Assembly (NCBI GenBank): GCA_965196725.1
Contig: OZ239770.1
Location: forward strand, 78,018 to 142,017
Length of the DNA stretch: 64,000 nt
Direction of reading: 5' to 3'
From: Mycoplasmatales bacterium
GTDB lineage: Bacteria > Bacillota_I > Bacilli_A > Mycoplasmatales > MT37
The notes beneath the pieces were generated by a model, which had not been told where the DNA came from, searched no databases, and saw nothing but the letters and a program-made list of their open reading frames with translations. Position numbers and translations under genes: made by a program. Positions 986-64,000 of the stretch are shown here, one piece after another. Position 1 is the first letter of the stretch. Each line of letters begins with the position of its first letter.

Positions 986-1819
986 TTATAACTTATTTTT
1001 GAATGGTGGAAAGGAGAGTTTAAAGAGTTGACAAGCGTTTTGACTAGTCGTTCATAAAACATCGGCCAAACTACTTGTTTTTAGCTTCGCAACCAGTTGA
1101 GCAGTTTCAAGTAAATAATGGGGATAATTAATTTTGCCACGGTTGGATTGGGGTGCTAAATAGGGCGCATCAGTTTCTAAAACAAAGGCGGAAAGCGGAA
1201 GCATTTTAACTATTGTTCGTAAATTTTCGGCATTGGGAAAAGTTAAAATTCCTCCTAAAGCGAGTTTAAATCCCCGGGCAATTAATCAATTAGCGTCTTC
1301 TAAACTGCCCGCAAAACAATGACTGATCCCTTGCAAGGCAAAGGGTTTTAAAATGGTTTTTAAATCAGCAAAAGCTTTGCGAACGTGTAATAAAACTGGC
1401 AGTTGATATTTGGCGGCTAATTTTAATTGAGCTTTAAATAATCATTTTTGCCGGGCAATGGTGGCGAAATTATAGTGATAATCCAATCCAATCTCACCGA
1501 TGGCAACGATTTTATCTCGATTAGTTTGAATTAACATTTCCAACGCTTGAATAGTTTGGGAATCAACTTTATCCGCTTCATGCGGATGAATTCCGACCGC
1601 TGGTAAACAGTTCGGAAACTGCTGTGCTTGTTTAATAACAATTTGACTACTTGTTAAATCAGTGCCAACGTTAATTAAATACTGAGCATGAGCTGTCATT
1701 GCGGCATGATAAATCATTGCGGGGGTCATTTTTTGCTCGGCAAAGCGCTGGTCAAATAAATGACAATGCGTATCAATTCAACTTTTAAACGATGGTGTTT
1801 TAATTAATGATTTGGGCAT
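986..1819 (-). CDS. tatD: TatD-family metal-dependent hydrolase/DNase
   Basis: MPKSLIKTPSFKSWIDTHCHLFDQRF..AIGEIGLDYHY..LPVLLHVRKA..VLETDAPYL. Contiguous only with TGA=Trp; TAA stop at 986-988. Confidence 0.85.
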
Positions 1820-2246
1820 CGGGTTTACTTCGAAATGATTGTTGAATTTTTTCCATCTTACATTCTAATTGATAATGGAAACGAAATTTTTGAAAGAGAA
1901 CCCGAGCAAGGAAATTTTCAAAGGTTTTTTTGTTTTGGCGGAATTTACCGGTTAAAAGAGCGGATTGATTGCTTTTAATTTCGACAATAATTTGGTCACG
2001 ATTTTTGAAAAGAACTTTCAGCTTTTCAATCTGAATTTCATATTCAGTTTGAATAATATCAAACAAAACAGTTTCAATTGTTTTAATAATCGCGGCAAAA
2101 TTATAAAATAAAACTGTATAGCGCCGGAAAAAAACCAATTTTTCTGTTCTTAAAAGCGAATAAAAAACTGGTTGATCCGGTTTTTGTAAACGACGTTGAA
2201 ATTTTTTTATTTGGAAGAAAAAGAAAAAAACCTTTTCAATGTTCAT
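1800..2246 (-). CDS. Hypothetical basic 148-aa protein; overlaps yidC 3' end by 40 nt and tatD 5' end by 20 nt; contains the perfect match to CRISPR spacer 16
   Basis: Uninterrupted ORF (ATG 2246, TAA 1800-1802) in the same orientation as its neighbours. I recognise no family motif. Confidence 0.5.
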   Translation of the reverse strand: MNIEKVFFFFFQIKKFQRRLQKPDQPVFYSLLRTEKLVFFRRYTVLFYNFAAIIKTIETVLFDIIQTEYEIQIEKLKVLFKNRDQIIVEIKSNQSALLTGKFRQNKKTFENFLARVLFQKFRFHYQLECKMEKIQQSFRSKPDAQIIN

Positions 2247-3388
2247 GGTTTAATCACTCCTTTTTTCAGCAACGCACGTTGTTTTTTTTGTCATTTTTCA
2301 AGATAAAAAAAGATTATTTTTTGTAGAATTTCGAACAACGAACTAAAAATCCAGTAAATACTTGTTCCGGTTGGCACGATAAAAAAGAAGACCAAAAACA
2401 TAATTTTGAAAACTCATTTAAAGAGAAAACTACGTGTTTTATTCTCGGTTTTGGGATTTTGAATGATAATCACTTTCTGTTCTTTTTTAAAAAGGCGGTC
2501 AAAGCCAAAATTATCGAATAAAAACAAACTTAAATAAACTCCGACTGGAAGTAAATAAATCCATTGCAAAGCTTTTAAACTGTCTCAAATGGTGCGGGTT
2601 AGAGAAAAGGTTTCTGTTCCAGAATCTTTAATCATTCTCGTTGTTCTAACCATGATAAAAATCGCAAAAAGAAAAGGGGTAAAAAGAAAACTATTCAAGG
2701 CGTTGCCGGAGGGACTAACATTCATTTTGCGATACATCTTCATGATTTCGAATTGCATTTGTTGTTTGCTGTGAAAATCGTCTTTATTACGATATTTCGC
2801 TTTAATTTCGTTGGCTTTATGCTGTAAAATTTTCATTTTATCAGCGTTTTTATATGTTTTTCAAGCATTAAAACCAACAATAATTCGAATCATTAAACTG
2901 ACCAGAAAAATTGAAGAAATCATAATCCACAGATTACTTTGTGCATGTAAATGATTTGCTGATCACCCAAAAAGATAAGAAATTTTAACCGTGATTCAAC
3001 TCAAAGGAAAAACAAAACAGACATGGAAAAGGGATTGAGAATATTTTCAAATTAAAGCAACGTTATCAGCACCGTAATAATGGTATTGATAAAAATCATT
3101 GCCAACAAGATGAAAATAATGCCGTTTAAAACTTAAAGCGGTTTCATAACCTGCTAAAACTTCAAAAAAAGTGCCGGATAAATAATCTTTTTTACCATCA
3201 CTATCGGTAATTGCAGCGGTGTTAATTTGCTGGCGGAAGAATAAAATTCCTAATCCTCAGAAAAAATTTAAAAGCATAAAAAGAAAGATTATTAAGCGCA
3301 AACCCTGAAACAAAGAACGCAAAACTTGTTTGGTCTTAGCGGGTTTAATCTCTAAATTAGCGCGATAAAAAATGTTATGATTGGTCAT
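2207..3388 (-). CDS. yidC: Membrane protein insertase YidC/Oxa1 family
   Basis: Directly downstream of rnpA. MTNHNIFYRANLEIKP.., then ..KMKILQHKANEIKAKYRNKDDFHSKQQMQFEIMKMYRKMNVSP.. and hydrophobic segments. Frame is continuous across several TGA codons to TAA at 2207-2209. Confidence 0.85.
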
Positions 3389-3743
3389 TTTGAACCTTTT
3401 CATGTTTGGAAATGTTTGCTAAACGTATGAAAATTTTCTGTAAAACAGTTTTTAACTGCGCGGGCGGAAATTGAAAGTAGTTATCTAGCACCATAAAGAC
3501 AATGTCTAATCCTAATTGAGGGCGAAAAACTTCTCGGAGCAACGGACGGATCTGGCGTTTAATTCGATTGCGTTCAACTGCTTCCGTTTTCATTGCTCGA
3601 CTGATGACAATCGCACAACAAGTTGGTTGCTTTTGGGTTGTTGTTTGAAGATAAAAGACTAAAAAAGGGTTAAAACGAATTCGTTTGCCGGCGCGAAAAA
3701 CGGTTTGAAGAGCAGGACCTTTAAGAACTGGGAAAAATTTCAT
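3375..3743 (-). CDS. rnpA: Ribonuclease P protein component
   Basis: 122-aa basic ORF between rpmH and yidC; ..AVERNRIKRQIRPLLREV.. motif (RNR-box-like). Confidence 0.85.
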   Translation of the reverse strand: MKFFPVLKGPALQTVFRAGKRIRFNPFLVFYLQTTTQKQPTCCAIVISRAMKTEAVERNRIKRQIRPLLREVFRPQLGLDIVFMVLDNYFQFPPAQLKTVLQKIFIRLANISKHEKVQNDQS

Positions 3744-4746: not shown

Positions 4747-5640
4747 TCAGTTACGTTTGAAAAAAGTGTAAAAACCATAAAAAAATAAAGCAATCACAGA
4801 AAGAAAATAACTGGTTGTTTTGATCAATTCAACATATAGTTCGCCGGCCTGACTATTAGCAAGCGTTTGTAAAACAACAAACAGAAAAGTAAAAAACAAA
4901 GTTAAGAAAATTTGGTGATTAGCAAGGTTTAAAATTGCCAACCCAATAAACCCGTATCCAAACACGGTGCCGGAAAAAAGCGTTTGAGCTTCGATGAAAA
5001 ATAAACCGGCAAAAGTAATCAGAATTGAACCGAGTAATAAAGCAAGATAACGATATTTTTGCACATTCAGTCCCATTAAAAGAAGCGCTTTTTCGTTTTT
5101 ACCGGAAGCACGAATTCGTAATCCGGATGTTGTTCAATAAATGAAAAAATAAACAATAAATGCTAATGCTAAACCAACAAAAAGATGAATAAAGACCGGC
5201 AGTTGTCGAAAAAGATAGGCATCAAATTCAGGATTGGCGTACAGGAAAATAAAGTCTTTTTGGGTAAAACTAGAAAAATTACGGACTAAAACAATGACAA
5301 ACGAAGCAATTCCGCCAATAATAATGTTTAAGGCTAACCCAACCAAAATAGCATCCATTCTCAAAGTGACACTTAAAGTTGTAAAAAGCAAGGTAAAGAG
5401 AAAGACAAACAAAAAGGAAAGCAAAAATGATAAAAGATAAACTGCTAAATCAGAGGTCAAACTTTTCCGGAGGAGAAAATTCATCAGCGTAAAAATAAAA
5501 ACAGCGGTTGTTAGTTGACCTTCTAAAGCAATATTAATTACCCCGGATAACTCCGATAATAAAGCAGTTAAAGCAATCAGAAATAAACAACCAAATAAAA
5601 GGAGTGTTCGATGGTCAATAAAATTTTGTAGTGTTAACAT
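4747..5640 (-). CDS. ABC transporter permease (nucleoside/sugar, BMP-associated type)
   Basis: Polytopic hydrophobic protein. Fragments 4747-5076 and 5134-5640 join in frame (..IYWTTSGLRIRASGKNEKALLLMGLNV..). Lies in an operon with the ATPase and BMP lipoprotein. Confidence 0.8.
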
Positions 5641-5650
5641 GATTTGACTT

Positions 5651-6814
5651 CTAATGGCGCTTCCTTTCCCGGTGTTTTGTTCAGAAATTAATCAGCGGGG
5701 CAAAATAAAGTTGCAATTTTGCTTTTCAAACGACTTTTTCGGCTTTTGACATTGAAAGCAAACGATTCATAAAAGCCACAGTTAATAGAATAAAACCAAG
5801 AATAATTTCAACATTTGAGGCGGGCAAATCACTTGTCACAATTTGGGTTTGTTGATATCTTAACATCGCAACAAAAAAAGTGACAAACGGCAAAACAAAA
5901 AATGATCCCTGCGATAATCAAACAATTGAAATCGTATCAAACCCATTGCTTGGCAATGCTTCTTCTTTGAAAAGATAATTGTTATCAAAATTACGGTAAT
6001 AGTAAAAAATTCCCGCTAAACCAGCTAGCAAACCACTGAAAGCAATCAGACCTAAAAGTTCCCGGGAACGATTAATACCAGCATACCGAACTGCTTTATG
6101 ATTAATTGCTAAAATCTTCATTTTGAAACCATAAAGTGTTTTCTTGAAAAGAAAAACAAAAACGATCACAACAAAAAAAGCAACAAACAAAGAAACAGGT
6201 AGCAAATTACCAATTAAAAGGTTGATTCCCATTAGATTGTTAACATTATTCATCGTCAATGTTCGTCCGATTAAATTGGTAAAATCAGGATGCGAAACAT
6301 AAAAACGATAGACGTGCATAATCACGTAATTAAGCATAATGGTTGTGAGAATCTCACTAACACCAAAGTAAATTTTTAGCGCACCAGTAAAAATAGCAAT
6401 TGTCATCGCGGTTAAAATTCCAACTACAAGTAAAAGAAAAATTCATAAAACTTTATAATCACCAACTAAATTGGCCATGTTTAAGTGATTGGCAAGGGCA
6501 AAAATAACCAGTCCGCTGGCCGACATTTGGCCGGCAACACCAAGATTAATAAAACCAACGTTAAAACAAATTAAAACCGCTACCGAACCAATTAAAAATG
6601 GCGCAAATTGCTTTAAAATCTGCACAAAAGTATTAAGATTAGTAAAAGGTTGATAAAACAAATCAACAAAGATAACGTCGCCATTATACTTGTCGGTTGA
6701 TAAAAGAAACAATCAAAAAAGAAGGACAACCAGATAAATCGATAACAAAGAAGCTGTTAGACGTTTAAGGGTGGCAACAATTTGCTGATTTCGATTTTCA
6801 CTTGCAAATTTCAT
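5651..6814 (-). CDS. ABC transporter permease (nucleoside/sugar, BMP-associated type)
   Basis: ATG 6814-6812 (MKFASENRNQQIV..), continuous in one frame through TGA codons to TAG at 5651-5653. Contains ..AINHKAVRYAGIN.. and multiple TM segments. Confidence 0.8.
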
Positions 6815-6817
6815 AAT

Positions 6818-8743
6818 TTAACTTCCTTTCCCTGTTATTAAAGTTCCAATTTCATGTAAGGCGGCGGTTTTATCTTTGATTTGGACAACTCCCATTATGC
6901 ACCCTTTACTCATTACAATTACACGATCAGAAATGGTGACAATCTCTTTTAAATCAACACTGGAAAAGAGGAGTGTCATTTTTTGTTGGGTTTTAACTTC
7001 AAGAAAAAGATTATATAAGAAATTTTTTGCTTTTAAATCAATTCCTCATGTTGGTTCATCAATTAATAAAAGGTGCGGTTGTTTTTCCATTTCACGACCA
7101 ATTAAAAATTTTTGAATATTTCCACCCGAAAGGGAACGAATTGGTTGTTTATAACTATGAAAACCGGCAATTTGATACTTTTTAATCAAATCATAAACAT
7201 GTTGCGCAGCCAGATTTTGATTAAACATTTTATAGGGGAAAAAACGCTTGTTCGTCAAATCATTAAAAACTAAATTGATGTGTAAGGGTTGATTTAAAAG
7301 AGCAGTTTCTTTAATCCGATCTTGTGATAAATAACCAATTTTTAATTTTTGACGATGATGAATTGATAATTTATCCAACCTGATTGATGATGCTGCTTGG
7401 TCATTTTGTTGGTGGCAATGAAAATGAAAACTACCCTGCTGCAGTTTTTCTAAACCATAAAGGGAACGCAAAAGGGTTGATTGACCATTATTTTCAATCC
7501 CTGCTAAGCCCACAATTTCCCCCTGATAAAGTTTAAAATTAAGATGTTGCAAATTTTGCCCTTCATAACTTTCTAGGGTAATGTTTTTCGCTTCCAGCAA
7601 AAGCGGTTTACTGTTGATTTGGTCAGATCCTTCCATTGTTTTGATTTTAGGGGTTCCTCCAACCATTAAACGGACTAATTCTTCGTCTGTAATTTCGTCA
7701 ACTTGGTAGTTACCAACCATTTTACCCTGGCGTAAAACAGTAATTTCATCAGCAACATGACGAATTTCATTAATTTTGTGGCTAATAAAAATAATTGCTT
7801 TGTTTTGTTTTTTATACTGAATCAATGAGTCTAAAAACTTTTTAATCTGATCAGATGGTAAAACGGAAGTTGGTTCATCAAAAATAATGATGTCAGAACG
7901 GCGGAATAAGGTTTTAAGAATTTCTGTTTGTTGTTGCTTAACAATACTAATGTCTTTAACTTTGTCGTTCAAATTAATCTGTAAATTAAAATCAGTGATT
8001 AATTTTTGCAATTCTTTGCGGGCTGCTGAATTACGATAAAAATTGGTTAAATTTTGATTATTAAATTTATCATACAAAGCATTCATAAGGTTGAGATATT
8101 TCTTTTCCACTAGCTTTGGATCATATTTTTTCAGAAAAAGTGTTTTCTGTTGTAAAAGCTCTTTAATTTGCTCAAGGCGTGTTGTTTCAGTTTCGCCTTG
8201 GTCTTTATTGAGCGGGAGCATTTTCAGTCTTTCTAACCGAACAGCATATGTGTCTTCAATTCGAATCACTTCCTGGCGGAGATTGTTTAATTCAGTTTCC
8301 TTGGCAAACAACAAATCATTTTTTGCTTGACTAAAGGCAGTCGCATTTTTTTGCCGCCGGGAAGGTGATACTAATTCGTATCCTAAAACAACATTTTCAA
8401 AAACAGAAAAATCATCAATTAAATTAAAATGTTGGCGCACAATTCCGATTCCAAGATGCATGGCTAAACGGGGATTATGTAATGAGGAAACTTGTTGATT
8501 TTTGATTCAAATTTGACCTGAGGTTGGTTTAATTTCACCACAAAGCATTTTGACAAACGTTGATTTTCCGGCGCCATTTTCGCCAAAAATCACATGAATT
8601 TTGCCATACTCAACCGCAAAATTGTTATTATCGTTTGAAACCAACCCATTAGGAAAACGATTCGTTAACGCAATTGTTTTAATCGCAATCTGTCCCGGTT
8701 GTTTTTGATGCCCATTCAAATGAGAAGAAGAATTACTGTTCAT
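6818..8743 (-). CDS. ABC transporter ATP-binding protein with two nucleotide-binding domains and a long insertion in NBD1
   Basis: Walker A GENGAGKST; IIIFDEPTSVL; second NBD GIENNGQSTL, LSGGNIQK, LLLIDEPTWGID. Fragments joined via TGA. Confidence 0.85.
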
Positions 8744-8761
8744 TACTTTTATTATCTCTCA

Positions 8762-10204: not shown

Positions 10205-10320
10205 TATTTAGATATTGTTTAACCAAACTCTTCTTTCCTGTTTTAAATACTTAAAAAAAATTAGTATTCCAAAGAAAAAATTATAGCACAAGAAATTTTT
10301 TTAGTCTATTAAAAGTTAGA

Positions 10321-10935: not shown

Positions 10936-11085
10936 ACGATAGTTTTAAAATGGTTTTTTTCTACATTACATTCAATGGTTTTATTATGTATGAGAATGAA
11001 ACGAATGTCAAATTAAAGGCAAATAGTATTCAGTTTGAATTAATAGTAGGTTATATTATTAAAAATGAAGAAGACAGACTAGGCA

Positions 11086-13836: not shown

Positions 13837-13914
13837 AGTTAAAAACTTTCCCTCTGTTCATTATTTTTTTTCTTGTTTTGATGATAAAATCCAAAACAAT
13901 TATAATTTTTTACA

Positions 13915-14724: not shown

Positions 14725-14736
14725 AAGATTAAATTA

Positions 14737-16149: not shown

Positions 16150-16155
16150 TTTTTT

Positions 16156-18340: not shown

Positions 18341-18392
18341 ATCCGGTAAAATTAATTTATAACTTTGTGATTCAATTCTTTTTTAAAAACCA

Positions 18393-19811: not shown

Positions 19812-19827
19812 AATTTATCAAACTAAA

Positions 19828-20618: not shown

Positions 20619-21828
20619 AACTGCTAAAGCCGACAAAACCTATACTGATCTTGCGCTGGCGCTTAAGACCGATCAAACCTACACCGATACCGAATTAGCC
20701 AAAAAAGCCGACAAAACTGATCTCTTCGAACCTGCGGCAGTTGCCCTAGAATTAAAATCTTCTTTAACACCGCGTTTGGCAACAAAAACAGAAGTTAATG
20801 CTAAAGCTTCCAAAACTTACACTGACACCGAATTAGCCAAAAAAGCCGACAAAACTTACACTGACACCGAACTAGCAAAAAAGGCAACCACAGTTGCTTT
20901 GCAAGATAAATTAGATAAAACAAGTTATGATTTTGCTCCCTTATTTGGTCAATATGAATTTGCCACTGATACTAACACCAATAAAAAGGTTCCTCGCTTA
21001 AAAGAATATGGGAAACTTTCCCAATCTAAAACACGCTTAGCCCATTATCCGCGTGAATATTCAACGCTTGAAAGTAATTTGATATCTTACGGAATTAGTT
21101 ATCTTAAACGCGCTAATAGCAAAGTGCTAGTCCAAGGGCATCGAAAAGGATGAGTTAAAGATCCAACACCGCCAACATGAGGTGATAATGCACTAACGTT
21201 GAATGCTGTTAAAGGTTATGATTGAAGCGCTTTGATCAATCAAGGAGAAACAAAAGACATTAGTGCTCAAACAGTTCCTAAAAGATTTTTTAAAGGCGAT
21301 AAATTAGTTATTAAATTCCATATACATTTGACTAATCATGGTCGAAATGGTTTATTTTTAATCTTTAAATATAATGGCGTTAATTTGAAAATTACAGATG
21401 CTAAATGGTGAAACCGTTGGCAGGGTTCTTCAGGAATTGATAGCGAATGAGCACGTAATACAACAAAAAGTGATTGTAATACTGTCGCTGTAGCACAATT
21501 TAATCCACTCAAATACAAATATCTCGAAGGTACATTTGTCATTCTTTTTGAAGATAATATTTACATTAGAATGGCAAATGGTGGTGTCGATAACGAAACT
21601 GATATTAACCATACAATGGCGCAAGCAACATTAGAATATCCTACAAATTACGATGATAATGTTGGAATTGAATTCTCTGGAATTGAAATTTCAGAAACGG
21701 CGTGGGCGACAGGAGCTCCTACAAGCAGTGGTTCTTCTCATAAATTTGATGTTGGAAGTAGAATTATTTTGAAGGAAAGTCCTTTTAACAAACAATTAGC
21801 TGCTGTTACACCAGGAGTAGAATTTTAA
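19954..21828 (+). CDS. Membrane-anchored repeat protein, paralogue A (624 aa)
   Basis: N-terminal TM anchor ..LVTFSTVFLISTLIIAGSLGGYF.. Helical LKTDxxFQxxLAEAL repeats and KADKTYTDTELAKK modules. Trp-rich C-terminal domain read through 6 TGA codons, frame checked. Confidence 0.75.
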
Positions 21829-54237: not shown

Positions 54238-57200
54238 ATGAATAGTAAATTAAAATATTATCTTGGCTTGGATCTAGGAATTTCTTCGGTTGGTTGAGCG
54301 ATTATGGCTGAAGATCCCAAAACCGCCAAACATACCTTATATGATTTTGGCGTTCGTTTGTTTGATGTGCCGGAAAATAGGGATAAACAATCAAATGCGA
54401 GTTTAAGACGTGATTTACGATCAAATCGTCGCTTAATTCGCCGCCGCAAGCATCGTATTTTAATGTTGAAAAGATTTCTATCCAGAATAAAATTTTTGAC
54501 AGAAGATCAATTTCAAACTGAATTTAACTTAAAATCAACAAACAAATTAATTAAAAAAGATGGTCGTTGAACAACAGAAACTGGATATTATAATACTTAT
54601 GTTTTAAAGGTTAAAGGTTTAACGGAGAAATTAGACAAACCTGAGTTATATTCTGTTTTATTAAATTATGCCAAAAAACGTGGTTATCTTAATAAATTTG
54701 CAATTGAAAATGATAAAAAACTTACAAAAACAGAACAATCAAATCAAAACAAAGCAATTGAAGAAGCAGATAATTTAGTTAAGAATTATGATGATTCAAT
54801 AGCAAAAGCAATTGTTTATGATAAAAGATTTGCCTTTGTTAAAAATGTAAAAGATCCGAAAACAAAAATTTTAATTGCTAACAACAAATCAGAGCTTGTG
54901 GAATTTCAAGGAAAAATGATTAATCGTTATCTTTTGGAAAAAATTTCCGCCAAAGAAGCAGAAAATGCTAAAACTAGTCAGTTTAATTGATTATTTGCTC
55001 GTCGCGATTATAGAAAAGAGTTACAGAATCTTCTTTTATATCAAAGTCAATTTCATCCAGAATTAAACACTAATAATTGTGATCAGATTATTGATATTAT
55101 TTTTCAAACTCGCGACTTTGAAATGGGTGCTAAATGCCGTGATTGTATTAAAAATATGATTGATAAAACAGAAGATTATATTGCGAATACAAACAATATT
55201 AGAAACTGTAAAAGACTAGATTGTTCGAATTTTGGTAATTTTTGAGATCTAAAAGGAAAATGTCACTTTTATCCCGAGGAAAGACGCCAAACAAAGGCTT
55301 CAGTAACATACATTATTTTTTATTTTATTAATGAATTATCAAAAATTTGAAGTTTTCTTGAACAGCGCAAAAACAGTAAATTAAAATTTACAGCTGCTGA
55401 TAAAAATGAAGTTTTATCTAGTTTATTTTTTAATGAATGAAAAACACATGCGCAAGCTTTGAAAATAATTCAACAAAAAATTAGTGAAACCTCAATATGA
55501 CGAGATTATGGAGATAAAAATTATTTTGATAAGAAGAAATATCCGATTTGAAAAGAAGATACAAAAGATGAGCAAACAGGTTTATCTTTTAAAAAACCAA
55601 TTTTATTACAAGCATGTTCTAAAATTCCTGCTTTAACATCCCAATTGAAACAGATCGAATTAACATCAAACAAGGTTTTTAATTGGGAGCAAAATATTAT
55701 TGAAAAAATAGGAGAAACCTGCTCGCTTTGAAAAACACCAATAAGAAGGGAATACGCATTAAAAAAACTGTTTTTATCAAAAAATATCGGTTTGAATAAA
55801 GAAGAATTTGCTCTTCTTCTTAAAGAATTGAAAGAAATAGAAGCATCTCCGGGGAACGCATCCGCAAAATATATGCAAGAAGCTATTAGAGATTATTTTG
55901 ATAAAGGCACATTATATGGTGATTTTGCCTGAAATTTTCAAAAAAATCATAACACTATCAAAAACAAAATTGTTAAAAACCAAACCATTTTTGCTCATTT
56001 TATCGATAAAGATATGATGTCGAATCCAGTTGTTATGCGGGCAATTAGTCAGACACGTAAAATTCTCAAAGCACTGCATCAAAATATTCAATTTGAATCT
56101 ATTGTTGTTGAAGTAGCAAGAGATTTGTATTCTACCCCTGAACAACGCAACGCTATTGAGAAAATAAATATAAATAATTATAACGAAAAAAAACGAATCA
56201 TTGAAAGGTTAAAAAAACGTGGTTTTGAAAACATTACTAAACGGAAAATTTTAGAATACAGTTTATGAGAACAACAGAAAGGAATCTGTATCTACAGTGG
56301 TAAACCAATTGATTTTAACCCTTCTCCTAATGTAGTATGAGAAATTGATCATATTATTCCTCAGAGTTTATGTCAAAATGATACAGCGACTAATAAAGTT
56401 CTTGTTTTGAGGACAGAAAATCAAAGTAAAGGCAAAAAAATTCCTTATTGATGATTGCAAGGTAAAAATTGATCAGATTTTTCTTCTCGTGTCAAATCAT
56501 TAAAATTACCTAAAGTTAAAACTAATCTTTTGTTAGCAAAAACTGTTGAAGAGGCAATTGAAGCTTTTTCTAGTCGTAATTTAAATGATACGCGTTATAT
56601 TTCTAAGTGAATTTCTAACTATATTAAAAGTGAAATTAGTCACTTTAATTTACCAACAAAAGTTTTTGTAGTTCCTGGTGCTTTAGTCTCTCATCTTCGC
56701 AGAAGTTGATTACGACAGTCGGCATGAGGATTATATCAAAAAGTTCGTGATATTACTCCTTATCATCACGCAATCGATGCCATTGTTATTTGTCAATTTA
56801 AAAAACAAATGGATATTCAATTAGCAGTTGATTTATTGAAACTAAATCAAATAAGATGGAAAAACATTAGTGAAAGCGAAAAAAAAGCAGAAGAAAAACA
56901 GTTTCTTGAAGTAAGTCAAAAAACCGCTAATATTCTTGAAAAAGCTTTTGGTAAGCAAGATGTTGATGAATATTCTAAAAAAATCAAAGAGGCATCTCGA
57001 AAAACTTTTTTGATGTTTGATTTTTATATTTCTAATTTGAAAGAAGAAGTTGAGAAAAGAATTCCCGTGAAATTAAAAAAAGTCGACTGTGAATGCCGAA
57101 AAAGAAGTATTTCTTCACTTTCAACCCCTTCGCCAGTTGATAATTGCCGAATTTGTTATGGAAGCAAAAAAATTCCTAGATATGACAGAATTTTGAATGT

Positions 57201-57942
57201 GGATGAATTTTATAACGAAAATTCTGAACTTTCAAATTCAATTTACATTAATTTTCGATACCCGCACATTTCACACATGATAAATCATAAAGTTCCCAAA
57301 CGAATTAACAGCAGTGAAAAAATAGGTTTCTTTTTTACAGGTTATACAAAAACAAAAAAAATGATATTTGAAAAAGCAAAAAACAAACTTTTCAGAATTT
57401 GATTTAAAAATCGCAAATTAAAATTGGAAGATTTGAATTTAAAGTTAGATTTCAAGTATGTAAAAGAAAAAGATCTACAAAGTTGATTGAACGAATTTAG
57501 CAGTGAAAATCGTGATTTTTTGGTTAAAACATCTAAAACAGGAGATCTTTTGGGGGTTATACCTATAAGTCGATTTTTTGGCTTAGAAATTAAAAAAGAT
57601 AAATTAGTGTGGTTAACAAACAAAACCGCTCAAGAATATGCGAAGAAAAACATCATCCATAAATCATTACATAAGATTTTAATTCCCAATAATTTGGTGG
57701 AGTATTATGATCCAAAACTTAGAAAAAATATTATTAAAGTGTTTAAATCACGTAAAGACAAAGATAAAGCATATTTACATATCAATGGTTTAATGAAAAC
57801 CGATGAAAAAACTATTTTTGGATTTAAAAATTCCACTGAAACACTTAAGAGAATTTCTAATGATTCACTTAAAATTATAAGAGTTAATTTGTTGGGTGAT
57901 TTATTGACCAAAAAAAATATATTTACTTCTATTAAAAGATAA
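54238..57942 (+). CDS. cas9: CRISPR-associated endonuclease Cas9 (1234 aa)
   Basis: RuvC-I YYLGLDLGISSVGWA; Arg-rich bridge helix RRDLRSNRRLIRRRKHR; HNH WEIDHIIPQS..NKVLV; RuvC-III YHHAIDAIVI. Whole frame translated: no TAA/TAG, many TGA=Trp. Confidence 0.95.
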
Positions 57943-57958: not shown

Positions 57959-58023
57959 GTTTTTATTCTATTAAAAATGGCGACTGAATCAAGCGGTGAT
58001 AGTTGAAAATGGACTAGTTTTTT
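57959..58023 (+). ncRNA. tracrRNA candidate (anti-repeat plus short tail and T6)
   Basis: 57959-57989 is the perfect reverse complement of repeat nt 6-36. 57990-57994 (CAAGC) extends pairing over nt 1-5 with one mismatch and one G-U. Tail GGTGATAGTTGAAAATGGACTAG ends in TTTTTT at 58018-58023. Strand is inferred (see findings). Confidence 0.7.
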
Positions 58024-58053
58024 GTTAAAATTAAGGTAATTGTTTGATGTGAA

Positions 58054-58389
58054 ATGATTGTTAAGTCACGGTTACGCATGATGCGAATTCTTTTAATGTA
58101 TGATTTGCCCAGCACAACCAAAAAAGCTCAGCAAATCTATCGTGAATTTAATGGTTTTCTTCTTAAAAATGGTTTTTATATGTTACAAGAATCAGTTTAT
58201 TGCTGTTTTGCAAAAAGTTATATGACAGCCAAATTAATTGTGACAAAGATTAAGAAAAACAGTCCGATTCTAGGTGACGTGCGTTGTTTAATAATTACCG
58301 AAAAACAATATCAGGAGATCAGTTTTTTTAGTGGAAAACCCAGTTTTCAGGAAGAATTGTTTAACCCGGAACCCATCTTAGAAATTTAA
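58054..58389 (+). CDS. cas2: CRISPR-associated endoribonuclease Cas2
   Basis: ..RMMRILLMYDLPSTTKKAQQIYREFNGFLLKNGFYMLQESVY..ITEKQY.. This pattern matches type II-A Cas2 (MRMILMFDMP..FRKFL..G..QFSVY..TEKQF). Confidence 0.85.
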   Translation: MIVKSRLRMMRILLMYDLPSTTKKAQQIYREFNGFLLKNGFYMLQESVYCCFAKSYMTAKLIVTKIKKNSPILGDVRCLIITEKQYQEISFFSGKPSFQEELFNPEPILEI

Positions 58390-58391
58390 AC

Positions 58392-59573
58392 ATGAAAACA
58401 ATTGAAATTAGTAACCAACTTTTTGAAAAGCAAAAAATTACCTTTGTTAATAAAATTGCGATTATTACCGGGCAAAATCGAGCGGGGAAAACGATGTTGC
58501 TAGATCAAATTGCAAGCGGTTTAGAAGGAAATAGCTTGCAAGTTTTGGTTGATAATCGAATGGTGAAAAAAGGGGAGTTTCAGGTTGTTTATTTAACAGA
58601 TGATCGCCAATTTAATGAAGAAATTAAATTAACCAAAACAAGTCGGTTTCGGAATCAATTAATTAATCGAATTAATAAAACTTTAATTCACAACGAAAAT
58701 TATTTGAATTTAAATCAACAAATTGAAGAATTGGCGGAAAAAATTAAAACAATTACTAATTTGGCAATTAGTCCAAACGAAACAGCATTTACGACTAAAA
58801 AAATTAAATTAACATTTGATACATCAAAAGTCAATCTGGAAAAAATTGTTGATAAATTACTCGAAATTGATTTAATCGATCAGCAAACGCAAACCCGGTT
58901 GGACGAAAAACATTTCAATAACTTTTTGTTAAGAATGATTGTTTTTAATATTTTGCTGACCGGATTAGATTGAGAAGATAAGCAACGTCCAATCGTAATT
59001 TTAGTTGATAATCCGGCGGTTTATGCGAATTATCAAACTTTAACTGAGTTTGCCTTTGAATTAAAAAAACTCCTCAAATTTCCCCATTTATATCTTTGTT
59101 TAGCCACCGGAAACGCCGAATTGGTTGCAAGTTTAAACTGTGATTTAGAAGCTATTCATTTGATTAAAGAACGTGAAATCATTGCTTTTAGAGGATATGA
59201 GGAAATTATCGAAGAAGCAATTGCGCTTTTTAGTTTTATTAGCAACAATGACTATAAAGATTGGCAACAATTTAAAATTAATTTAAAAAATGTGTTGGAA
59301 AAAGCCGATTTTGAACGTGAATTTAGTTTATTTTGAAACACGGAAACGATTAACTGGTTTAAAATGCTTTACGCTAGTAAAATTGTTTTTGCGGCGGAAA
59401 AAGAAATAATTAATTTAGATGATTATGTTAGCAAAAACTTTACCTTGATCATTCGAACTAATCTTTTAAGACAAATTATTCTTTTTTTATACGCAAAGAA
59501 TTTGAATATTCCTGTGATTTTTAGTACAAATTTGCAGGCAAAACTAAAAAAAATTAGTTTTTTGTGGAACTAG
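58392..59573 (+). CDS. P-loop NTPase in the csn2 position (Csn2-like, 393 aa)
   Basis: Walker A ITGQNRAGKTML; Walker-B-like RPIVILVDNP (Asn where the catalytic Glu is expected). Three in-frame pieces joined by TGA. Lies between cas2 and the array. Confidence 0.6.
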
Positions 59574-59704
59574 TTTTTTTAAAAAAATGTAATTTTTACA
59601 AAAAAATTCTAAAAAAGCAATATGTTTTTTCAATAAGCAATGTTTATAAAATATTAAATATTGTTGGTGATATGAGTTTGATATTATGTTTTTTTGCTAT
59701 AATG
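59574..59704 (+). promoter_or_regulatory. CRISPR leader with extended -10 TGCTATAAT (59695-59703) abutting repeat 1
   Basis: AT-rich 131-nt region between the csn2-like stop and the first repeat. The TGnTATAAT ends 1 nt before the repeat. Confidence 0.5.
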
Positions 59705-62700
59705 GTTTTATTCAGTCGCCATTTTTAATAGAATAAAAACATTCTTTTATTTGAAATAAGATGGAAAAAAGTTTTATTCAGTCGCCATTTTTAATAGAAT
59801 AAAAACTTTCGCCTTCGTAAAGATGTTCCCCCGCCGGTTTTATTCAGTCGCCATTTTTAATAGAATAAAAACGTTAAATTACCAAATGATATTTTTTCAA
59901 CCGTTTTATTCAGTCGCCATTTTTAATAGAATAAAAACACAATTCGGCGATCGTTTGAACGGTGAAGCGTTTTATTCAGTCGCCATTTTTAATAGAATAA
60001 AAACTTTCTTTTCTCAAATCGGCAAAAAATACTGGTTTTATTCAGTCGCCATTTTTAATAGAATAAAAACTTTTGCTTTGGCAAAAAAACCCTGTCCCAA
60101 GTTTTATTCAGTCGCCATTTTTAATAGAATAAAAACGGAAAAATTTAATTACATATTAGAACGACGGTTTTATTCAGTCGCCATTTTTAATAGAATAAAA
60201 ACGCGATTTGTTGGATTTGTTAGAAGTTAAGAGTTTTATTCAGTCGCCATTTTTAATAGAATAAAAACCTGTTTTTTTCAAACTACCCTTCAACCGCTGT
60301 TTTATTCAGTCGCCATTTTTAATAGAATAAAAACATGTTATTAACAAGAAAGATTTGCTCGTCAGTTTTATTCAGTCGCCATTTTTAATAGAATAAAAAC
60401 AGCAGTTCCCTGTCTCGCGTGGTGCGGGGGGTTTTATTCAGTCGCCATTTTTAATAGAATAAAAACGAAGGTTTGCTTCTCTTAAACAGACCAAAGGTTT
60501 TATTCAGTCGCCATTTTTAATAGAATAAAAACTCTTTAATTGGCGAAGTCGCGGTTGGGATTGTTTTATTCAGTCGCCATTTTTAATAGAATAAAAACCT
60601 CCTACTCCCAGTCCACCTCTTGCGCCGCGTTTTATTCAGTCGCCATTTTTAATAGAATAAAAACTTTGACACCGCGCCGATTACCGACGCGGGCGTTTTA
60701 TTCAGTCGCCATTTTTAATAGAATAAAAACATTTTGCCGCGATTATTAAAACAATTGAAAGTTTTATTCAGTCGCCATTTTTAATAGAATAAAAACTAAC
60801 AAAGTTAAAAACCGGACAAAAAGTCAGTTTTATTCAGTCGCCATTTTTAATAGAATAAAAACTTGCCGACCAAGCAAACCCCTTAATTGTTAGTTTTATT
60901 CAGTCGCCATTTTTAATAGAATAAAAACATTTATGGGTTGTTGTATTACCGTATATGGGTTTTATTCAGTCGCCATTTTTAATAGAATAAAAACCTGCTT
61001 GATCCACGGGAACCCGAACGAGTGGTTTTATTCAGTCGCCATTTTTAATAGAATAAAAACCACCTTTAAGACCTTTTTCGCCAGTGATGCGTTTTATTCA
61101 GTCGCCATTTTTAATAGAATAAAAACCTGATGGGCGGCTTCAAAGGCAGTGCGAGCGTTTTATTCAGTCGCCATTTTTAATAGAATAAAAACATTATTAC
61201 GCCCTTAATTACGGCATCCAGTGTTTTATTCAGTCGCCATTTTTAATAGAATAAAAACAACGACGCTTTATTTAGCAATAACGTGGCTGTTTTATTCAGT
61301 CGCCATTTTTAATAGAATAAAAACTAATAAATCAGTGTTAATTTTGTTTTCGGTGTTTTATTCAGTCGCCATTTTTAATAGAATAAAAACCTTTCAAAGA
61401 CGGCTACACCGTTTAAGCGCGTTTTATTCAGTCGCCATTTTTAATAGAATAAAAACAAATAAAGGAGGCGACATTAGACCCCTAAAGTTTTATTCAGTCG
61501 CCATTTTTAATAGAATAAAAACAACTTACGAAATTGAAGCAGTTTTTAACAAGTTTTATTCAGTCGCCATTTTTAATAGAATAAAAACCGCACTTAGCTA
61601 GCAAGCTTGTTTTTTGCTGTTTTATTCAGTCGCCATTTTTAATAGAATAAAAACCTTTTTAATACTTAGTATTTTTGCCTTCTGGTTTTATTCAGTCGCC
61701 ATTTTTAATAGAATAAAAACAAATAAAGATAAAGGAGGATTAGACCCTAAGTTTTATTCAGTCGCCATTTTTAATAGAATAAAAACTACGGCTTTGTCAT
61801 GTCGCCCTCTTCAAAGGTTTTATTCAGTCGCCATTTTTAATAGAATAAAAACAAAAAAAGGGCGCTTCTTTATTAACTGTTAAGTTTTATTCAGTCGCCA
61901 TTTTTAATAGAATAAAAACGTTCATTGGTGAATAAGTCCTTCGTTGAGCGTTTTATTCAGTCGCCATTTTTAATAGAATAAAAACCAGGTTTGATAAAGT
62001 AATGACACCCTTTAAGTTTTATTCAGTCGCCATTTTTAATAGAATAAAAACGATTTAGTGAGCCTTGCTTTTAACGAAGCAGTTTTATTCAGTCGCCATT
62101 TTTAATAGAATAAAAACTGAACAATGATTGTTTTTTGCTCTAATAAAGTTTTATTCAGTCGCCATTTTTAATAGAATAAAAACTTCGAAACGGGCAAGAC
62201 GGGGGAACGATAAGTTTTATTCAGTCGCCATTTTTAATAGAATAAAAACTACTTCATCTAAAACATCTCGTCCAACCAAGTTTTATTCAGTCGCCATTTT
62301 TAATAGAATAAAAACTCATTTCTCTTCAAACCATAAATAAAAAAGGTTTTATTCAGTCGCCATTTTTAATAGAATAAAAACTTTCTTGTTAATAACATAA
62401 AACGGATGGGAGTTTTATTCAGTCGCCATTTTTAATAGAATAAAAACAAGACGAACAACTTCGGCCAAGCGCGAAGAGTTTTATTCAGTCGCCATTTTTA
62501 ATAGAATAAAAACTTTTTTGCATTGAAAATTTATTAAATATGTGTTTTATTCAGTCGCCATTTTTAATAGAATAAAAACGTATTTGCTTGCTTTTGCCTT
62601 TCTGAGGACGTTTTATTCAGTCGCCATTTTTAATAGAATAAAAACTCGTAAAATTTGGTTGTTAAAATAACAATGGTTTTATTCAGTCGCCATTTTTAAT

Positions 62701-64000
62701 AGAATAAAAACCGGTTGTTGGCGGACTAGGCGCCCTTGGTGGTTTTATTCAGTCGCCATTTTTAATAGAATAAAAACTGTTAATTTTCGTTTCCATCTTA
62801 AAAGCGGGTTTTATTCAGTCGCCATTTTTAATAGAATAAAAACACCTTGTTGACCAGGCACACCTTGGATACCGTTTTATTCAGTCGCCATTTTTAATAG
62901 AATAAAAACAAAACGGCTAGGACTTCCTTTCGAAAGAACGTTTTATTCAGTCGCCATTTTTAATAGAATAAAAACTTTTGAAGCACTTTTAACCCATGAA
63001 AAAACGTTTTATTCAGTCGCCATTTTTAATAGAATAAAAACAAATAAAAAAAAAGGAGATAGACCCCTTGAGTTTTATTCAGTCGCCATTTTTAATAGAA
63101 TAAAAACGCGGACGGGCAAACGACCGACGCCGGGAATGTTTTATTCAGTCGCCATTTTTAATAGAATAAAAACGCGGGCGCTGATGAAAGGGATATTGCT
63201 TGAGTTTTATTCAGTCGCCATTTTTAATAGAATAAAAACAAAATGCGAACGCCAAGCTTAGTAGCTTAGGTTTTATTCAGTCGCCATTTTTAATAGAATA
63301 AAAACAATGAAGAAATTGTCATGATTGTTTCACCAGTTTTATTCAGTCGCCATTTTTAATAGAATAAAAACAAATAAAAAAAAAGGAGATAGACCCCTCA
63401 AGTTTTATTCAGTCGCCATTTTTAATAGAATAAAAACAAAGGGTTGAAGCATTAAGTTCGCCCGCACGTTTTATTCAGTCGCCATTTTTAATAGAATAAA
63501 AACCGGTGATTTGGTCGTTCCGTTTGAACCGCTGTTTTATTCAGTCGCCATTTTTAATAGAATAAAAACAAAAAATAGCAAATCATGAATGTTGCGCTTG
63601 TTTTATTCAGTCGCCATTTTTAATAGAATAAAAACGTTAACTCCTTTGGGGCGCTTTGCTCACTAGGTTTTATTCAGTCGCCATTTTTAATAGAATAAAA
63701 ACGACGGCGGATTAGAGACCATGATTATAACTGTTTTATTCAGTCGCCATTTTTAATAGAATAAAAACGAACATGATTTTTACTTTGACTATCAGTAATG
63801 TTTTATTCAGTCGCCATTTTTAATAGAATAAAAACCAAATGGTGGTGTTGATAATGAAACTGATAGTTTTATTCAGTCGCCATTTTTAATAGAATAAAAA
63901 CGATTAAGTCAGCCTTAATCCCTCGTTCAATGTTTTATTCAGTCGCCATTTTTAATAGAATAAAAACCTAAAATTTCGATAAACGAATCGCTTACAATGT
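59705..64000 (+). CRISPR. CRISPR array: 65 complete 36-nt repeats (GTTTTATTCAGTCGCCATTTTTAATAGAATAAAAAC) and 65 spacers; array continues past window end
   Basis: 66-nt periodicity from 59705. Spacers are 30 nt, except four of 31 nt (61853, 63636, 63769, 63968). No repeat variant noticed by eye. The last 2 nt (GT) start a 66th repeat. Confidence 0.98.

What the first reader, a model, noticed from the sequence alone, without database searches (positions are those of the whole stretch)
2072..2101. Perfect (30/30) chromosomal match to CRISPR spacer 16 inside a core-operon ORF
Spacer 16 (60731-60760, ATTTTGCCGCGATTATTAAAACAATTGAAA) is identical to the minus strand of 2072-2101. That is the sense strand of the 148-aa ORF 1800-2246 (codons ..NFAAIIKTIE..). 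cas9 in the same window is intact with all nuclease motifs, so a perfect self-target should be lethal. It could survive only if the PAM is absent, interference is off, or crRNA16 is not made. With the array read on +, the 3' flank is CTGTTTTGTT. This shares nothing with the flank of the second self-like hit (TTAACCATAC after 21604), so at least one of the two lacks a PAM. There are two possible origins. This ORF, or a close homologue, may travel on an invader. Alternatively, spacers may be sampled from conspecific chromosomal DNA, for example during mycoplasma chromosomal transfer.
Basis: partly seen in the sequence, partly recalled or inferred. Interest (0 to 1): 0.85.

Follow-up and report, generated by a model that had tools for sequence, protein, structure and literature searches.

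The report
Self-matching CRISPR spacer in a marine Mollicute
One spacer in this small-genome marine Mollicute's CRISPR array matches one of the bacterium's own chromosomal genes perfectly. This kind of self-match is already documented in Mollicutes, and why the cell survives it cannot be settled from this window.

Summary
Spacer 16 (60731-60760, +) matches the minus strand of 2072-2101 at 30/30, far beyond chance.

**Target.** It is a real gene under purifying selection (dN/dS 0.18). It lies between yidC and tatD and is best read as a diverged Jag/KhpB-type KH-domain protein. I found no sign that it travels on a phage or plasmid.

**A second case.** Spacer 63 matches a surface-protein gene at 28/30, and both mismatches are synonymous. 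So this array has sampled DNA from the species' own gene pool at least twice.

**Host.** It uses genetic code 4 and is related to Ca. Spiroplasma holothuricola.

**Cas locus.** Cas9 is full length with all catalytic motifs, but the locus is rearranged compared with every relative I could fetch.
- Only the last 4 codons and stop of cas1 remain next to cas2.
- The lineage's tracrRNA candidate is absent from the 64 kb window.
- A lone inverted repeat next to cas9 looks like a tracrRNA but is an old array end.
- One inversion explains all three, and would put cas1 and the tracrRNA beyond the window end.

**PAM.** No external protospacer was found in any collection, so the PAM is unknown.

**Why it is tolerated.** My estimates are no functional PAM at the resident copy (about 0.4), interference switched off (about 0.3), or an assembly that mixes strains (about 0.12).

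**Verdict.** New member of a known kind, moderate-low interest.

The parts
2072..2101 (-). Protospacer: 30/30 identical to spacer 16, on the sense strand of ORF148
2062..2071 (-). 3' flank of the protospacer in crRNA sense (CTGTTTTGTT), where a Cas9 PAM would have to lie. The +1 base is C here and A in the nearest relative (Thr versus Asn codon).
   Evidence: crRNA direction inferred
1800..2246 (-). ORF148, the target gene. It is a lineage-restricted small protein, probably a diverged Jag/KhpB-type KH-domain protein, overlapping the yidC 3' end and the tatD 5' end.
   Evidence: dN/dS 0.18 against the syntenic ortholog; 8-member family; KH_KhpA-B and R3H hits in family members, PDB 2pt7_G and 3gku; synteny
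2207..3403 (-). yidC (60KD_IMP), upstream neighbour in the operon
986..1819 (-). tatD-family hydrolase, downstream neighbour
54238..57942 (+). cas9, 1234 aa under code 4. It matches TIGR01865 end to end and carries D12, E625, D704-H705, N719 and H843..D847.
57959..57994 (+). Lone repeat unit in inverted orientation, with 2 mismatches to the reverse-complement consensus. It is the positional homologue of the cas9-proximal terminal repeat in relatives. It mimics a tracrRNA anti-repeat but has no tracrRNA tail.
58005..58017 (+). Remnant of the last 4 codons and stop of cas1, fused next to the lone repeat. The rest of cas1 is absent from this position.
58023..58031 (+). Extended -10 (TGTTAAAAT) ahead of cas2, conserved in relatives
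58054..58389 (+). cas2
58392..59573 (+). 393-aa P-loop protein in the csn2 position. The same gene follows cas2 in all relatives. It has no Csn2 Pfam hit.
59695..59703 (+). Leader promoter: extended -10 TGCTATAAT, one base before repeat 1. The same element (TGTTATAAT) is present in relative L007.
59705..64000 (+). CRISPR array: 65 identical 36-nt repeats, spacers of 30-31 nt, running off the window end
60731..60760 (+). Spacer 16, 16th from the leader end, 27% GC (host-like)
63836..63865 (+). Spacer 63, the near-self spacer
21575..21604 (+). 28/30 match to spacer 63 inside surface-protein ORF 19954-21828. Both mismatches are synonymous (GTC/GTT Val, AAC/AAT Asn).

Best explanation
Spacer 16 is a by-product of adaptation. 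The type II-A machinery captured it from the species' own gene pool, either from the cell's own chromosome or from DNA of a conspecific cell, and not from a mobile element. The array is transcribed on the + strand from the leader next to the csn2-like gene. Cas9 loaded with crRNA16 would therefore pair with 2072-2101 and need a PAM within CTGTTTTGTT.

I think the resident copy is most likely not licensed for cutting because that flank is not a functional PAM for this Cas9. There are two ways this could arise. The donor allele may have carried a different flank, or a flank substitution was selected after capture. On this reading the spacer is inert baggage that has persisted while at least 15 newer spacers were added.

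**Shown:** the match; the gene is real, chromosomal and syntenic; the Cas9 motifs are present; a second spacer comes from a diverged allele or paralogue of a host gene.

**Inferred:** the array direction (about 0.8), the polarity and order of acquisition, and the non-PAM status of the flank.
For: 1. **Self or conspecific origin.** The match is 30/30 to the window's own chromosome but only 23/30 to the nearest relative's ortholog, with dS about 0.83 between them. Spacer 63 differs from the resident gene only at two synonymous sites. Both spacers have host-like GC, whereas 18 of 64 spacers are at least 50% GC against 7% of genomic 30-mers.
2. **No mobile-element link.** The target has no PHROG hit, and no window spacer (16 included) has a phage, plasmid or IMG/VR match. 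The family is small, and the one homologue whose locus could be fetched is chromosomal and syntenic.
3. **Cas9 looks functional.** It is a 1234-aa open frame in an AT-rich genome with all catalytic motifs.
4. **Tolerance is old.** Spacer 16 is 16th from the leader. Later acquisitions in type II-A need Cas9 and Csn2 (PMC6990116). So the spacer was tolerated while at least the Cas9-dependent adaptation machinery still worked, which makes a later loss of function an unlikely original rescue.
5. **Direction.** An extended -10 sits directly before repeat 1 and is conserved in L007. The degenerate terminal repeat lies at the far end in relatives. The tracrRNA candidate in relatives has a conserved -10 and a hairpin-plus-U7 terminator, and its anti-repeat end pairs with the repeat's 5' end in leader-to-array sense.
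6. **Flank and PAM domain.** In the 56 nt from the PAM-proximal protospacer half onward, one of only two differences from the relative is the +1 flank base. The PAM-interacting C-terminal third of Cas9 is its fastest-evolving part, at 18-43% identity.
Against: - The PAM is unknown. Every attempt to find external protospacers failed.
- Type II-A acquisition is normally PAM-selected. A spacer taken from this very locus should therefore have had a PAM, so a flank difference or mutation must be assumed, and none is shown.
- Most Cas9 PAMs do not read the +1 position (my own knowledge).
- The locus is visibly rearranged, and neither the cas1 body nor a tracrRNA is in the window. A disabled system is a serious alternative.
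Confidence: 0.4

Rival explanations
1. Interference is switched off in this strain, so any self-match is harmless. The rearrangement separated or removed the tracrRNA and most of cas1. Alternatively, Cas9 is inactivated by a missense change or an unseen anti-CRISPR. Adaptation without cleavage would also let host-derived spacers accumulate.
For: - The locus differs from all fetched relatives. Only the last 4 codons and stop of cas1 remain.
- The lineage's tracrRNA candidate has no counterpart anywhere in the 64 kb.
- The only anti-repeat is a relic repeat whose tail is cas1 debris.
- Two host-like spacers fall in the 15% of the genome that is visible here. That echoes the loss of foreign-DNA preference reported for dCas9 (Wei et al. 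2015, as summarised in PMC6990116).
- In M. arthritidis, self-targeting spacers coexist with a broken cas9 (PMC6882279).
Against: - A single inversion explains the junctions, and it would leave cas1 (minus a few codons) and the tracrRNA just beyond the array, outside the window.
- The cas9 ORF and its motifs are intact, and all 65 repeats are identical.
- Fifteen spacers sit on the leader side of spacer 16, so the adaptation machinery, including Cas9, worked after its capture.
- Most spacers are compositionally foreign, which is not the chromosome-dominated pattern seen with dCas9.
Confidence: 0.3
2. The self-match is an artefact of assembling a symbiont population. The array carrying spacer 16 and the matching target allele (or its flank) belong to different co-resident strains that were merged into one consensus contig. 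In that case the spacer records conflict between strains.
For: - The relatives are metagenome contigs at very high coverage, named like ctg3641_2251x_c. The window's proteins map to a single 399,034-bp NCBI/ENA contig with no names.
- The target and the array are 58 kb apart, which I expect is farther than a single long read spans. I could not inspect the reads.
- Spacer 63 shows that diverged alleles or paralogues exist in the gene pool.
Against: A consensus normally follows the dominant strain at both loci. A chimera needs spacer 16 to be in the majority array while its carrier's target variant is in the minority. I have no read-level evidence either way.
Confidence: 0.12
3. The spacer was taken from a phage, plasmid or ICE that carries a copy of ORF148.
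For: Nothing direct. Mollicute ICE-derived spacers are known (PMC6882279).
Against: - The ORF148 family has 8 representatives in 1.84 billion proteins. The only close homologue sits in the same rnpA-yidC-X-tatD slot.
- There is no PHROG hit.
- There are no phage, plasmid, IMG/VR or JGI metagenome matches.
Confidence: 0.04
4. The self-match has a function: Cas9 with crRNA16 binds without cutting and regulates the jag-like/tatD operon.
For: Natural regulatory uses of self-targeting are reviewed in PMC6990116.
Against: - Known cases use partial complementarity, whereas this match is 30/30.
- The crRNA has the sense sequence, so it cannot pair with the mRNA. It would bind the template strand, which is the weaker orientation for a transcription block (my own knowledge).
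- Spacer 16 was not found in the relatives' arrays that were fetched.
Confidence: 0.03

Closest known systems
Self-targeting spacers in Mollicutes with apparently intact Cas9 (M. dispar ATCC27140, M. mobile 163K, M. gallisepticum S6) or broken Cas9 (M. arthritidis 158L3-1, A. palmae J233), Ipoutcha et al. 2019, PMC6882279
   Same: A type II system in a code-4 minimal bacterium. A spacer is identical to a housekeeping-type chromosomal gene (for example pheT in M. arthritidis). No PAM consensus could be derived, and tolerance is unexplained where Cas9 looks intact.
   Different: - The host is from another clade, related to Ca. Spiroplasma holothuricola.
- The cas locus is rearranged, with cas1 and the tracrRNA displaced or lost.
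- A second spacer carries synonymous-only mismatches, which points to allelic or paralogous donors.
CRISPR autoimmunity and tolerance routes in general (Stern et al. 2010; Wimmer and Beisel 2020, PMC6990116)
   Same: The self-match appears accidental. The recognised survival routes are mutations that disrupt targeting (of the target or of the CRISPR-Cas components), active DNA repair, partial complementarity, and anti-CRISPRs.
   Different: - The protospacer is unmutated and the flanking repeats are perfect.
- The spacer is not at the leader end.
- Which route applies here could not be determined.
CRISPR loci with cas9 reversed relative to the other cas genes in marine and arthropod symbiont Mollicutes (Ca. 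Spiroplasma holothuricola CP022928/9, Ca. Mycoplasma liparidae, Ca. Hepatoplasma), Lian et al. 2020, PMC6965317
   Same: Large arrays in reduced genomes (424,539 bp for Ca. S. holothuricola, 795,917 bp for Ca. M. liparidae), with cas9 reversed relative to the other cas genes. The window's Cas2 is 62% identical to that of CP022929.1.
   Different: The window has a third arrangement: cas9, lone inverted repeat, cas1 stub, cas2, csn2-like, array. The close relatives fetched here have cas9 -> array <- csn2-cas2-cas1. In the CP022929.1 locus fetched here, cas9 lies upstream of and divergent from cas1-cas2-csn2-array.
Anti-CRISPR-protected self-targeting in type II-A Listeria (Rauch et al. 2017; cited in PMC6990116)
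   Same: Intact Cas9 together with a perfect chromosomal match
   Different: No prophage or Acr candidate was identified here. This was not testable with one 64-kb window of a roughly 0.4-Mb genome.

Membership tests
Self-targeting CRISPR spacer | Spacer identical to a site in the same replicon outside the array | tested here: met
   30/30. This holds within the assembled window; a strain chimera is not excluded.
Self-targeting CRISPR spacer | Target flanked by the system's PAM, making it an interference-competent self-target | not testable with these tools
   No external protospacers were found in phages, plasmids, IMG/VR, JGI metagenomes or GTDB genomes, so the PAM is unknown.
Type II-A CRISPR-Cas | cas9 with RuvC and HNH nuclease domains | tested here: met
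   TIGR01865 E=1.8e-133 over residues 7-1220; motifs
Type II-A CRISPR-Cas | cas1 adjacent to cas2 | tested here: not met
   Only the last 4 codons and stop remain at 58005-58017. Relatives have a 298-310 aa cas1 there. It may lie beyond the window end.
Type II-A CRISPR-Cas | cas2 | tested here: met
   PF09827 and TIGR01573
Type II-A CRISPR-Cas | csn2 | tested here: inconclusive
   A 393-aa P-loop protein sits in the csn2 slot and is conserved after cas2 in all relatives. It has only weak AAA/RecF-like hits and no Csn2 family hit.
Type II-A CRISPR-Cas | tracrRNA with anti-repeat, nexus and terminator | tested here: not met
   The window has only a relic repeat at 57959-57994 with no conserved tail. 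The candidate is present in the relatives' pyrG-cas1 spacer. Rfam does not recognise it.
Type II-A CRISPR-Cas | 36-nt repeats, about 30-nt spacers, leader next to the last cas gene | tested here: met
Jag/KhpB (target gene ORF148) | KH domain with GxxG loop | tested here: inconclusive
   ORF148 alone has no Pfam hit. PF13083 is hit by 3 of 9 family members (best E=0.0023). Profile hits are PDB 2pt7_G (E=1e-3) and 3gku (E=0.011). In the window protein the motif is GKFR, not GKFG.
Jag/KhpB (target gene ORF148) | C-terminal R3H domain | tested here: not met
   R3H is found in only one longer family member, P0248.
Jag/KhpB (target gene ORF148) | Position directly downstream of yidC in the rnpA-yidC operon | tested here: met
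   That this is the usual place of jag in Firmicutes is my own knowledge.
Regulatory (non-cleaving) self-targeting | Partial complementarity that allows binding without cleavage | tested here: not met
   The match is complete, 30/30.

The most novel reading that the evidence does not exclude
This symbiont, whose genome appears to be only about 0.4 Mb, may routinely feed DNA of its own species into its CRISPR array. Two of 64 complete spacers map to the 15% of the chromosome visible here, which extrapolates loosely to roughly 10-20% of spacers. That would imply DNA exchange or uptake between cells of a host-restricted, extremely reduced bacterium. It would also imply that a perfect, PAM-flanked self-target is kept harmless by an unknown mechanism, such as an inhibitor or a Cas9 that selects spacers but does not cut the chromosome.
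Probability: 0.12. Interest if true: 0.65.

Novelty: new member of a known kind. Interest (0 to 1): 0.35.

Why it matters
If the resident site turned out to carry a working PAM while Cas9, the tracrRNA and crRNA16 are all expressed, this genome would be a compact place to look for a new Cas9 inhibitor or a self-tolerance mechanism. It would also be evidence for DNA flow between cells of one of the smallest-genome bacteria known to carry CRISPR.

As it stands, it adds one more case to a documented and unresolved pattern in Mollicutes. Its most useful by-products are structural:
- the inversion-type rearrangement of the cas locus;
- a tracrRNA candidate for this clade;
- the unusually fast divergence of Cas9 compared with its neighbours.

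Tried and rejected
1. **First tracrRNA call.** I initially took 57959-58025 for the tracrRNA (anti-repeat plus U-tract). I rejected this because the tail aligns to the cas1 3' end and cas1-cas2 junction of relatives. The unit is also the positional homologue of the relatives' terminal repeat.
2. **Minus-strand transcription of the array.** This would put the PAM on the other side, with flank TATAAAATAA. I considered it because spacers 27, 31, 51 and 56 all start with AAATAAA, and spacer 31 is out of register at its 3' end. I judged it unlikely (about 0.2) given the conserved extended -10 before repeat 1, the degenerate repeat at the far end in relatives, and the promoter and terminator polarity of the tracrRNA candidate. 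Duplex energies alone cannot separate the strands.
3. **Deriving the PAM from external protospacers.** All of these were negative or gave chance hits:
   - all spacers against 50,697 phage records and against 72,556 plasmids;
   - six IMG/VR scans (the 57 loci returned were checked);
   - two JGI metagenome scans;
   - two GTDB genome scans.
4. **Partial hits from relatives' spacers.** The 19/20 matches of relatives' spacers to window genes fall inside the shuffled null once scored over full length.
5. **Reaching the window's own contig beyond 64 kb.** Exact-protein look-ups found no record.
6. **Rfam.** It has no match for the tracrRNA candidate.
7. **Flanks reconstructed from overlapping spacers.** Under the favoured direction, the spacer 10 and 41 overlap gives no flank information.

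Full report
**1. Observation**

The 30-mer of spacer 16 (60731-60760, +) occurs once more in the window, on the minus strand of 2072-2101, with no mismatch. No dinucleotide-preserving shuffle produced a second copy, and an independent Hamming scan gave the same result. On the spacer-sense strand the flanks are TTATTTTATA (5') and CTGTTTTGTT (3').

The array starts at 59705. It has 65 identical 36-nt repeats (GTTTTATTCAGTCGCCATTTTTAATAGAATAAAAAC), 64 complete spacers of 30-31 nt, and a 65th spacer cut by the window end.

I pooled 422 spacers from this array and from the arrays of relatives. Only spacers 16 and 63 rise above a shuffled-spacer null, whose best score was 25/30.

**2. Organism and context**

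Table 11 ORFs are fragmented, while code 4 (TGA = Trp) gives long ORFs. GC content is 33.7%. So this is a Mollicute.

Its proteins map to one unnamed NCBI/ENA contig of 399,034 bp. The closest Cas9 relatives sit on metagenome contigs of 412,791 bp and 420,644 bp. The larger carries a '_c' suffix, which I read as circular. They share the synteny arcA-arcB-arcD-arcC-argS-cas9.

Cas2 is 62% identical to the Cas2 of CP022929.1. PMC6965317 identifies that record as Ca. Spiroplasma holothuricola, a 424,539-bp hadal sea-cucumber gut symbiont. The window therefore comes from a relative of that small-genome marine-symbiont clade. This placement rests on those comparisons and not on a phylogeny.

**3. 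The target gene**

ORF 1800-2246 (-) lies between yidC (2207-3403, PF02096) and a tatD-family gene (986-1819), downstream of rnpA. It has no direct Pfam, NCBIfam or PHROG hit.

Homologues are very scarce. Among 5.8 billion proteins there is one 76%-identical protein, which sits in the same rnpA-yidC-X-tatD slot of a related organism (L001). Among 1.84 billion cluster representatives there are only 8 proteins at E <= 1e-3.

Against the L001 ortholog, dN/dS is 0.18 with dS 0.83. That is similar to tatD (0.19) and rnpA (0.15), so this is a real gene under purifying selection.

The family alignment shows a conserved LLxGKFGQNQxxLExFL block. Further evidence on what the family is:
- Three of nine members hit the KhpA/KhpB KH-domain model, with best E = 0.0023.
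- One longer member carries an R3H domain.
- The family profile hits the KH-type PDB entries 2pt7_G (E = 1e-3) and 3gku (E = 0.011).

Given its position after yidC, I read it as a diverged, R3H-less Jag/KhpB-type protein. The statistics are weak but consistent. Nothing links it to a mobile element.

**4. Where the spacers came from**

The relative's ortholog differs from spacer 16 at 7 of 30 positions, all within the PAM-distal 17 nt. With dS near 0.8 between the two organisms, a 30/30 match must come from the cell's own chromosome or from a very close conspecific.

Spacer 63 differs from the resident gene at two positions. Both are synonymous third-codon transitions (GTC/GTT Val, AAC/AAT Asn). 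That is the signature of an allele or paralogue of a gene under selection, not of chance similarity.

Spacer 63's target is the first of two tandem genes for membrane-anchored, repeat-rich proteins with identical N-terminal parts. It has only weak PHROG hits, confined to its repeat region.

Most other spacers look foreign. Eighteen of 64 are at least 50% GC, against 7% of genomic 30-mers. Four read as Gly-X-Y triplets. Spacers 16 and 63 have host-like composition.

The non-array part of the window is about 15% of a roughly 0.4-Mb genome. Two hits there suggest that more exist elsewhere, but with very wide uncertainty. The relatives' arrays show no such hits in the small parts of their genomes that I hold.

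**5. State of the CRISPR-Cas locus**

*What is intact.* Cas9 (54238-57942, 1234 aa) matches TIGR01865 end to end. It has D12, E625, D704-H705, N719 and H843..D847. cas2 (58054-58389) is present. So is a 393-aa P-loop protein in the csn2 slot (58392-59573).

*What is missing or misleading.* cas1 is not there. Between cas9 and cas2 lie only 111 nt, and they contain a 36-nt unit (57959-57994) that is almost the reverse complement of the repeat. I first took that unit for the tracrRNA anti-repeat.

*What the relatives show.* Several loci have pyrG, a roughly 300-nt spacer, then cas1 (298-310 aa), cas2, the csn2-like gene, a leader and the array. These are L007, L008 and L009-L011, representing at least three organisms. 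One of them (L009) keeps only a single repeat. In L004/L007 and L005, that module faces cas9 across the array: cas9 -> [degenerate terminal repeat ... array ... leader] <- csn2-cas2-cas1.

*How the window compares.* The window's lone unit is the positional homologue of that cas9-proximal terminal repeat. The sequence immediately after it (58005-58017, GAAAATGGACTAG) aligns with the last codons and stop of cas1 in the relatives. It is followed by the conserved cas2 promoter TGTTAAAAT.

*Simplest history.* One inversion fits these junctions. Its breakpoints would lie at the terminal repeat and inside the 3' end of cas1. It would flip cas2, the csn2-like gene, the leader and the array. It would leave a slightly truncated cas1 at the far end of the array, outside this window. 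This is an inference, because I could not fetch the rest of the contig.

**6. tracrRNA and array direction**

In the relatives, the pyrG-cas1 spacer carries a conserved element on the strand opposite cas1. Its parts, in order, are:
- a -10 box;
- GGTAAC ... GTAATAAGAT, complementary to the repeat's 5' end;
- AAGGCC... hairpins;
- a GGGG...CCCC hairpin;
- a strong GCACAT...ATGTGC-T7 terminator.

Covariation support is limited because few sequences are available. Rfam does not recognise the element. It remains a candidate.

Nothing like it exists in the window.

Three things indicate that crRNAs are made in the leader-to-array direction, which is the window's + strand. They are this candidate, the conserved extended -10 directly before repeat 1 (TGCTATAAT at 59695-59703; TGTTATAAT in L007), and the degenerate repeat at the far end of the relatives' arrays. 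I put this at about 0.8.

**7. The PAM**

I could not derive it.
- All spacers were searched against 50,697 phage records and 72,556 plasmids.
- Selected spacers or spacer families were run in six IMG/VR scans and two JGI metagenome scans.
- The repeat and Cas9 were searched against 185,579 species genomes.

These gave nothing or only chance hits.

One detail may matter. In the 56 nt that run from the PAM-proximal half of the protospacer downstream, the window and L001 differ at only two positions. One of them is flank base +1 (C versus A, Thr versus Asn). This is compatible with an escape substitution but does not show one.

**8. Why the cell survives**

The known routes are reviewed in PMC6990116. 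The main ones are mutation of the target or PAM, loss of CRISPR function, anti-CRISPRs, and partial complementarity.

The position of spacer 16 constrains the answer. It is 16th from the leader, so at least 15 spacers were added later. Type II-A acquisition needs Cas9 and Csn2. It also needs the tracrRNA, which is my own knowledge from Heler et al. 2015 and Wei et al. 2015. The spacer was therefore tolerated while at least the adaptation functions of Cas9 were working. That argues against a later rearrangement as the original rescue.

My ranking is:
- the resident site lacks a functional PAM: 0.4;
- interference is off, through loss or displacement of the tracrRNA, a silent Cas9 defect or an inhibitor: 0.3;
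- a population-assembly chimera: 0.12;
- other readings, including a mobile-element donor for the spacer's origin (0.04) and a regulatory role (0.03).

**9. Comparison with what is known, and novelty**

Ipoutcha et al. 2019 (PMC6882279) already list perfect self-targeting spacers against housekeeping genes in several Mollicutes. Three of those species have apparently functional Cas9, and no PAM consensus was found. Lian et al. 2020 (PMC6965317) already describe reversed cas9 arrangements and large arrays in marine-symbiont Mollicutes.

The finding is therefore a new member of a known kind. What this analysis adds:
- the particular rearrangement;
- the relic repeat that mimics a tracrRNA;
- the synonymous-only near-self spacer;
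- the Jag/KhpB reading of the target;
- a tracrRNA candidate for the clade;
- the observation that Cas9 is far more diverged (42-46% identity) than its neighbours (argS 60-76%, arcC 83-91%, Cas2 76-85%), most of all in its C-terminal third.

**10. Verdict**

Interest is moderate-low (0.35) because the phenomenon is documented and the key unknowns cannot be resolved from this window. Those unknowns are the PAM, the presence of the tracrRNA, and strain purity. A handful of simple analyses on the full contig and its reads would settle most of them.

Noticed in passing
window 54238-57942 versus L004, L005, L006: Cas9 is only 42-46% identical to its closest relatives, while flanking genes are far more conserved (argS 60-76%, arcC 83-91%, Cas2 76-85%, csn2-like 57-84%). 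The C-terminal, PAM-interacting third is the most diverged part (18-43%). This suggests rapid diversification or exchange of the cas9 module within the clade.
   Followed up: partly
window 57959-58031: A lone inverted repeat unit is fused to the last 4 codons and stop of cas1. Together they look like a tracrRNA (anti-repeat plus U-tract) but form a rearrangement junction. If transcribed by read-through from cas9, the unit would give an RNA fully complementary to crRNA repeats.
   Followed up: yes
window 61457-61486, 61721-61750, 63042-63071, 63372-63401 (spacers 27, 31, 51, 56): These four spacers are variants of one target (AAATAAA..GGAG..TAGACCC). Spacers 51 and 56 share 27 nt. This looks like a hot spot in a variable invader, and no source was found in any collection.
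   Followed up: partly
window 60335-60364 and 62382-62411 (spacers 10 and 41): The two spacers overlap by 17 nt on opposite strands. Both come from the same 43-nt stretch of an unknown invader.
   Followed up: partly
window spacers 14, 21, 46, 48 (60599-60628, 61061-61090, 62712-62741, 62844-62873): These spacers translate as Gly-X-Y triplet repeats (collagen-like coding sequence). Eighteen of 64 spacers are at least 50% GC in a 34% GC genome, so many spacers come from compositionally foreign DNA of unknown origin.
   Followed up: partly
window 19954-21828 and 22124-24820: Two tandem paralogous genes encode membrane-anchored, repeat-rich (KADKTYTDTELAKK) proteins with identical N-terminal parts of about 220 aa and different C-terminal domains. 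Spacer 63's near-match lies in the C-terminal domain of the first. There is no firm Pfam assignment.
   Followed up: partly
L007 about 8800-9010, L008 about 8830-9020, L009 about 8840-9010 (minus strand): A conserved tracrRNA candidate lies in the pyrG-cas1 intergenic region of relatives. It also contains a second segment (TTTATTCTATTAAAAA) complementary to the repeat's 3' half, placed downstream of the nexus-like hairpins. That is an unusual permuted layout.
   Followed up: partly
L004 13705-21600, L005 13694-23636, L007 11682-17851: Relatives on contigs of 412,791 and 420,644 bp carry very large arrays: at least 121 repeats in L004/L007 and at least 151 in L005. In L005 some spacers are present twice.
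   Followed up: partly
L009 11683-13364: One relative has cas1-cas2-csn2-like followed by a single repeat, then a DNA methylase and a ThaI-type restriction gene. This looks like a collapsed array next to a restriction-modification system.
   Followed up: no
L067 (CP022929.1) 4852-20309: In Ca. Spiroplasma holothuricola, cas9 is divergent from cas1-cas2-csn2-array. The array lies next to tatD-yidC, with no ORF148-like gene between those two.
   Followed up: partly
window 2033-2088 (minus strand) versus L001: A 56-nt stretch covering the PAM-proximal 13 nt of the protospacer and the sequence downstream has only 2 differences from the relative, although dS is about 0.8. Synonymous sites are conserved too. 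This could be a nucleotide-level constraint such as an internal promoter or RNA element.
   Followed up: no
window 10309-12438: Gene orientation switches at about 11 kb, from minus-strand genes to plus-strand genes. The first plus-strand ORF (11086-12438) looks DnaA-like by eye. If so, the protospacer would lie about 9 kb from the replication origin. This was not tested against a family model.
   Followed up: no
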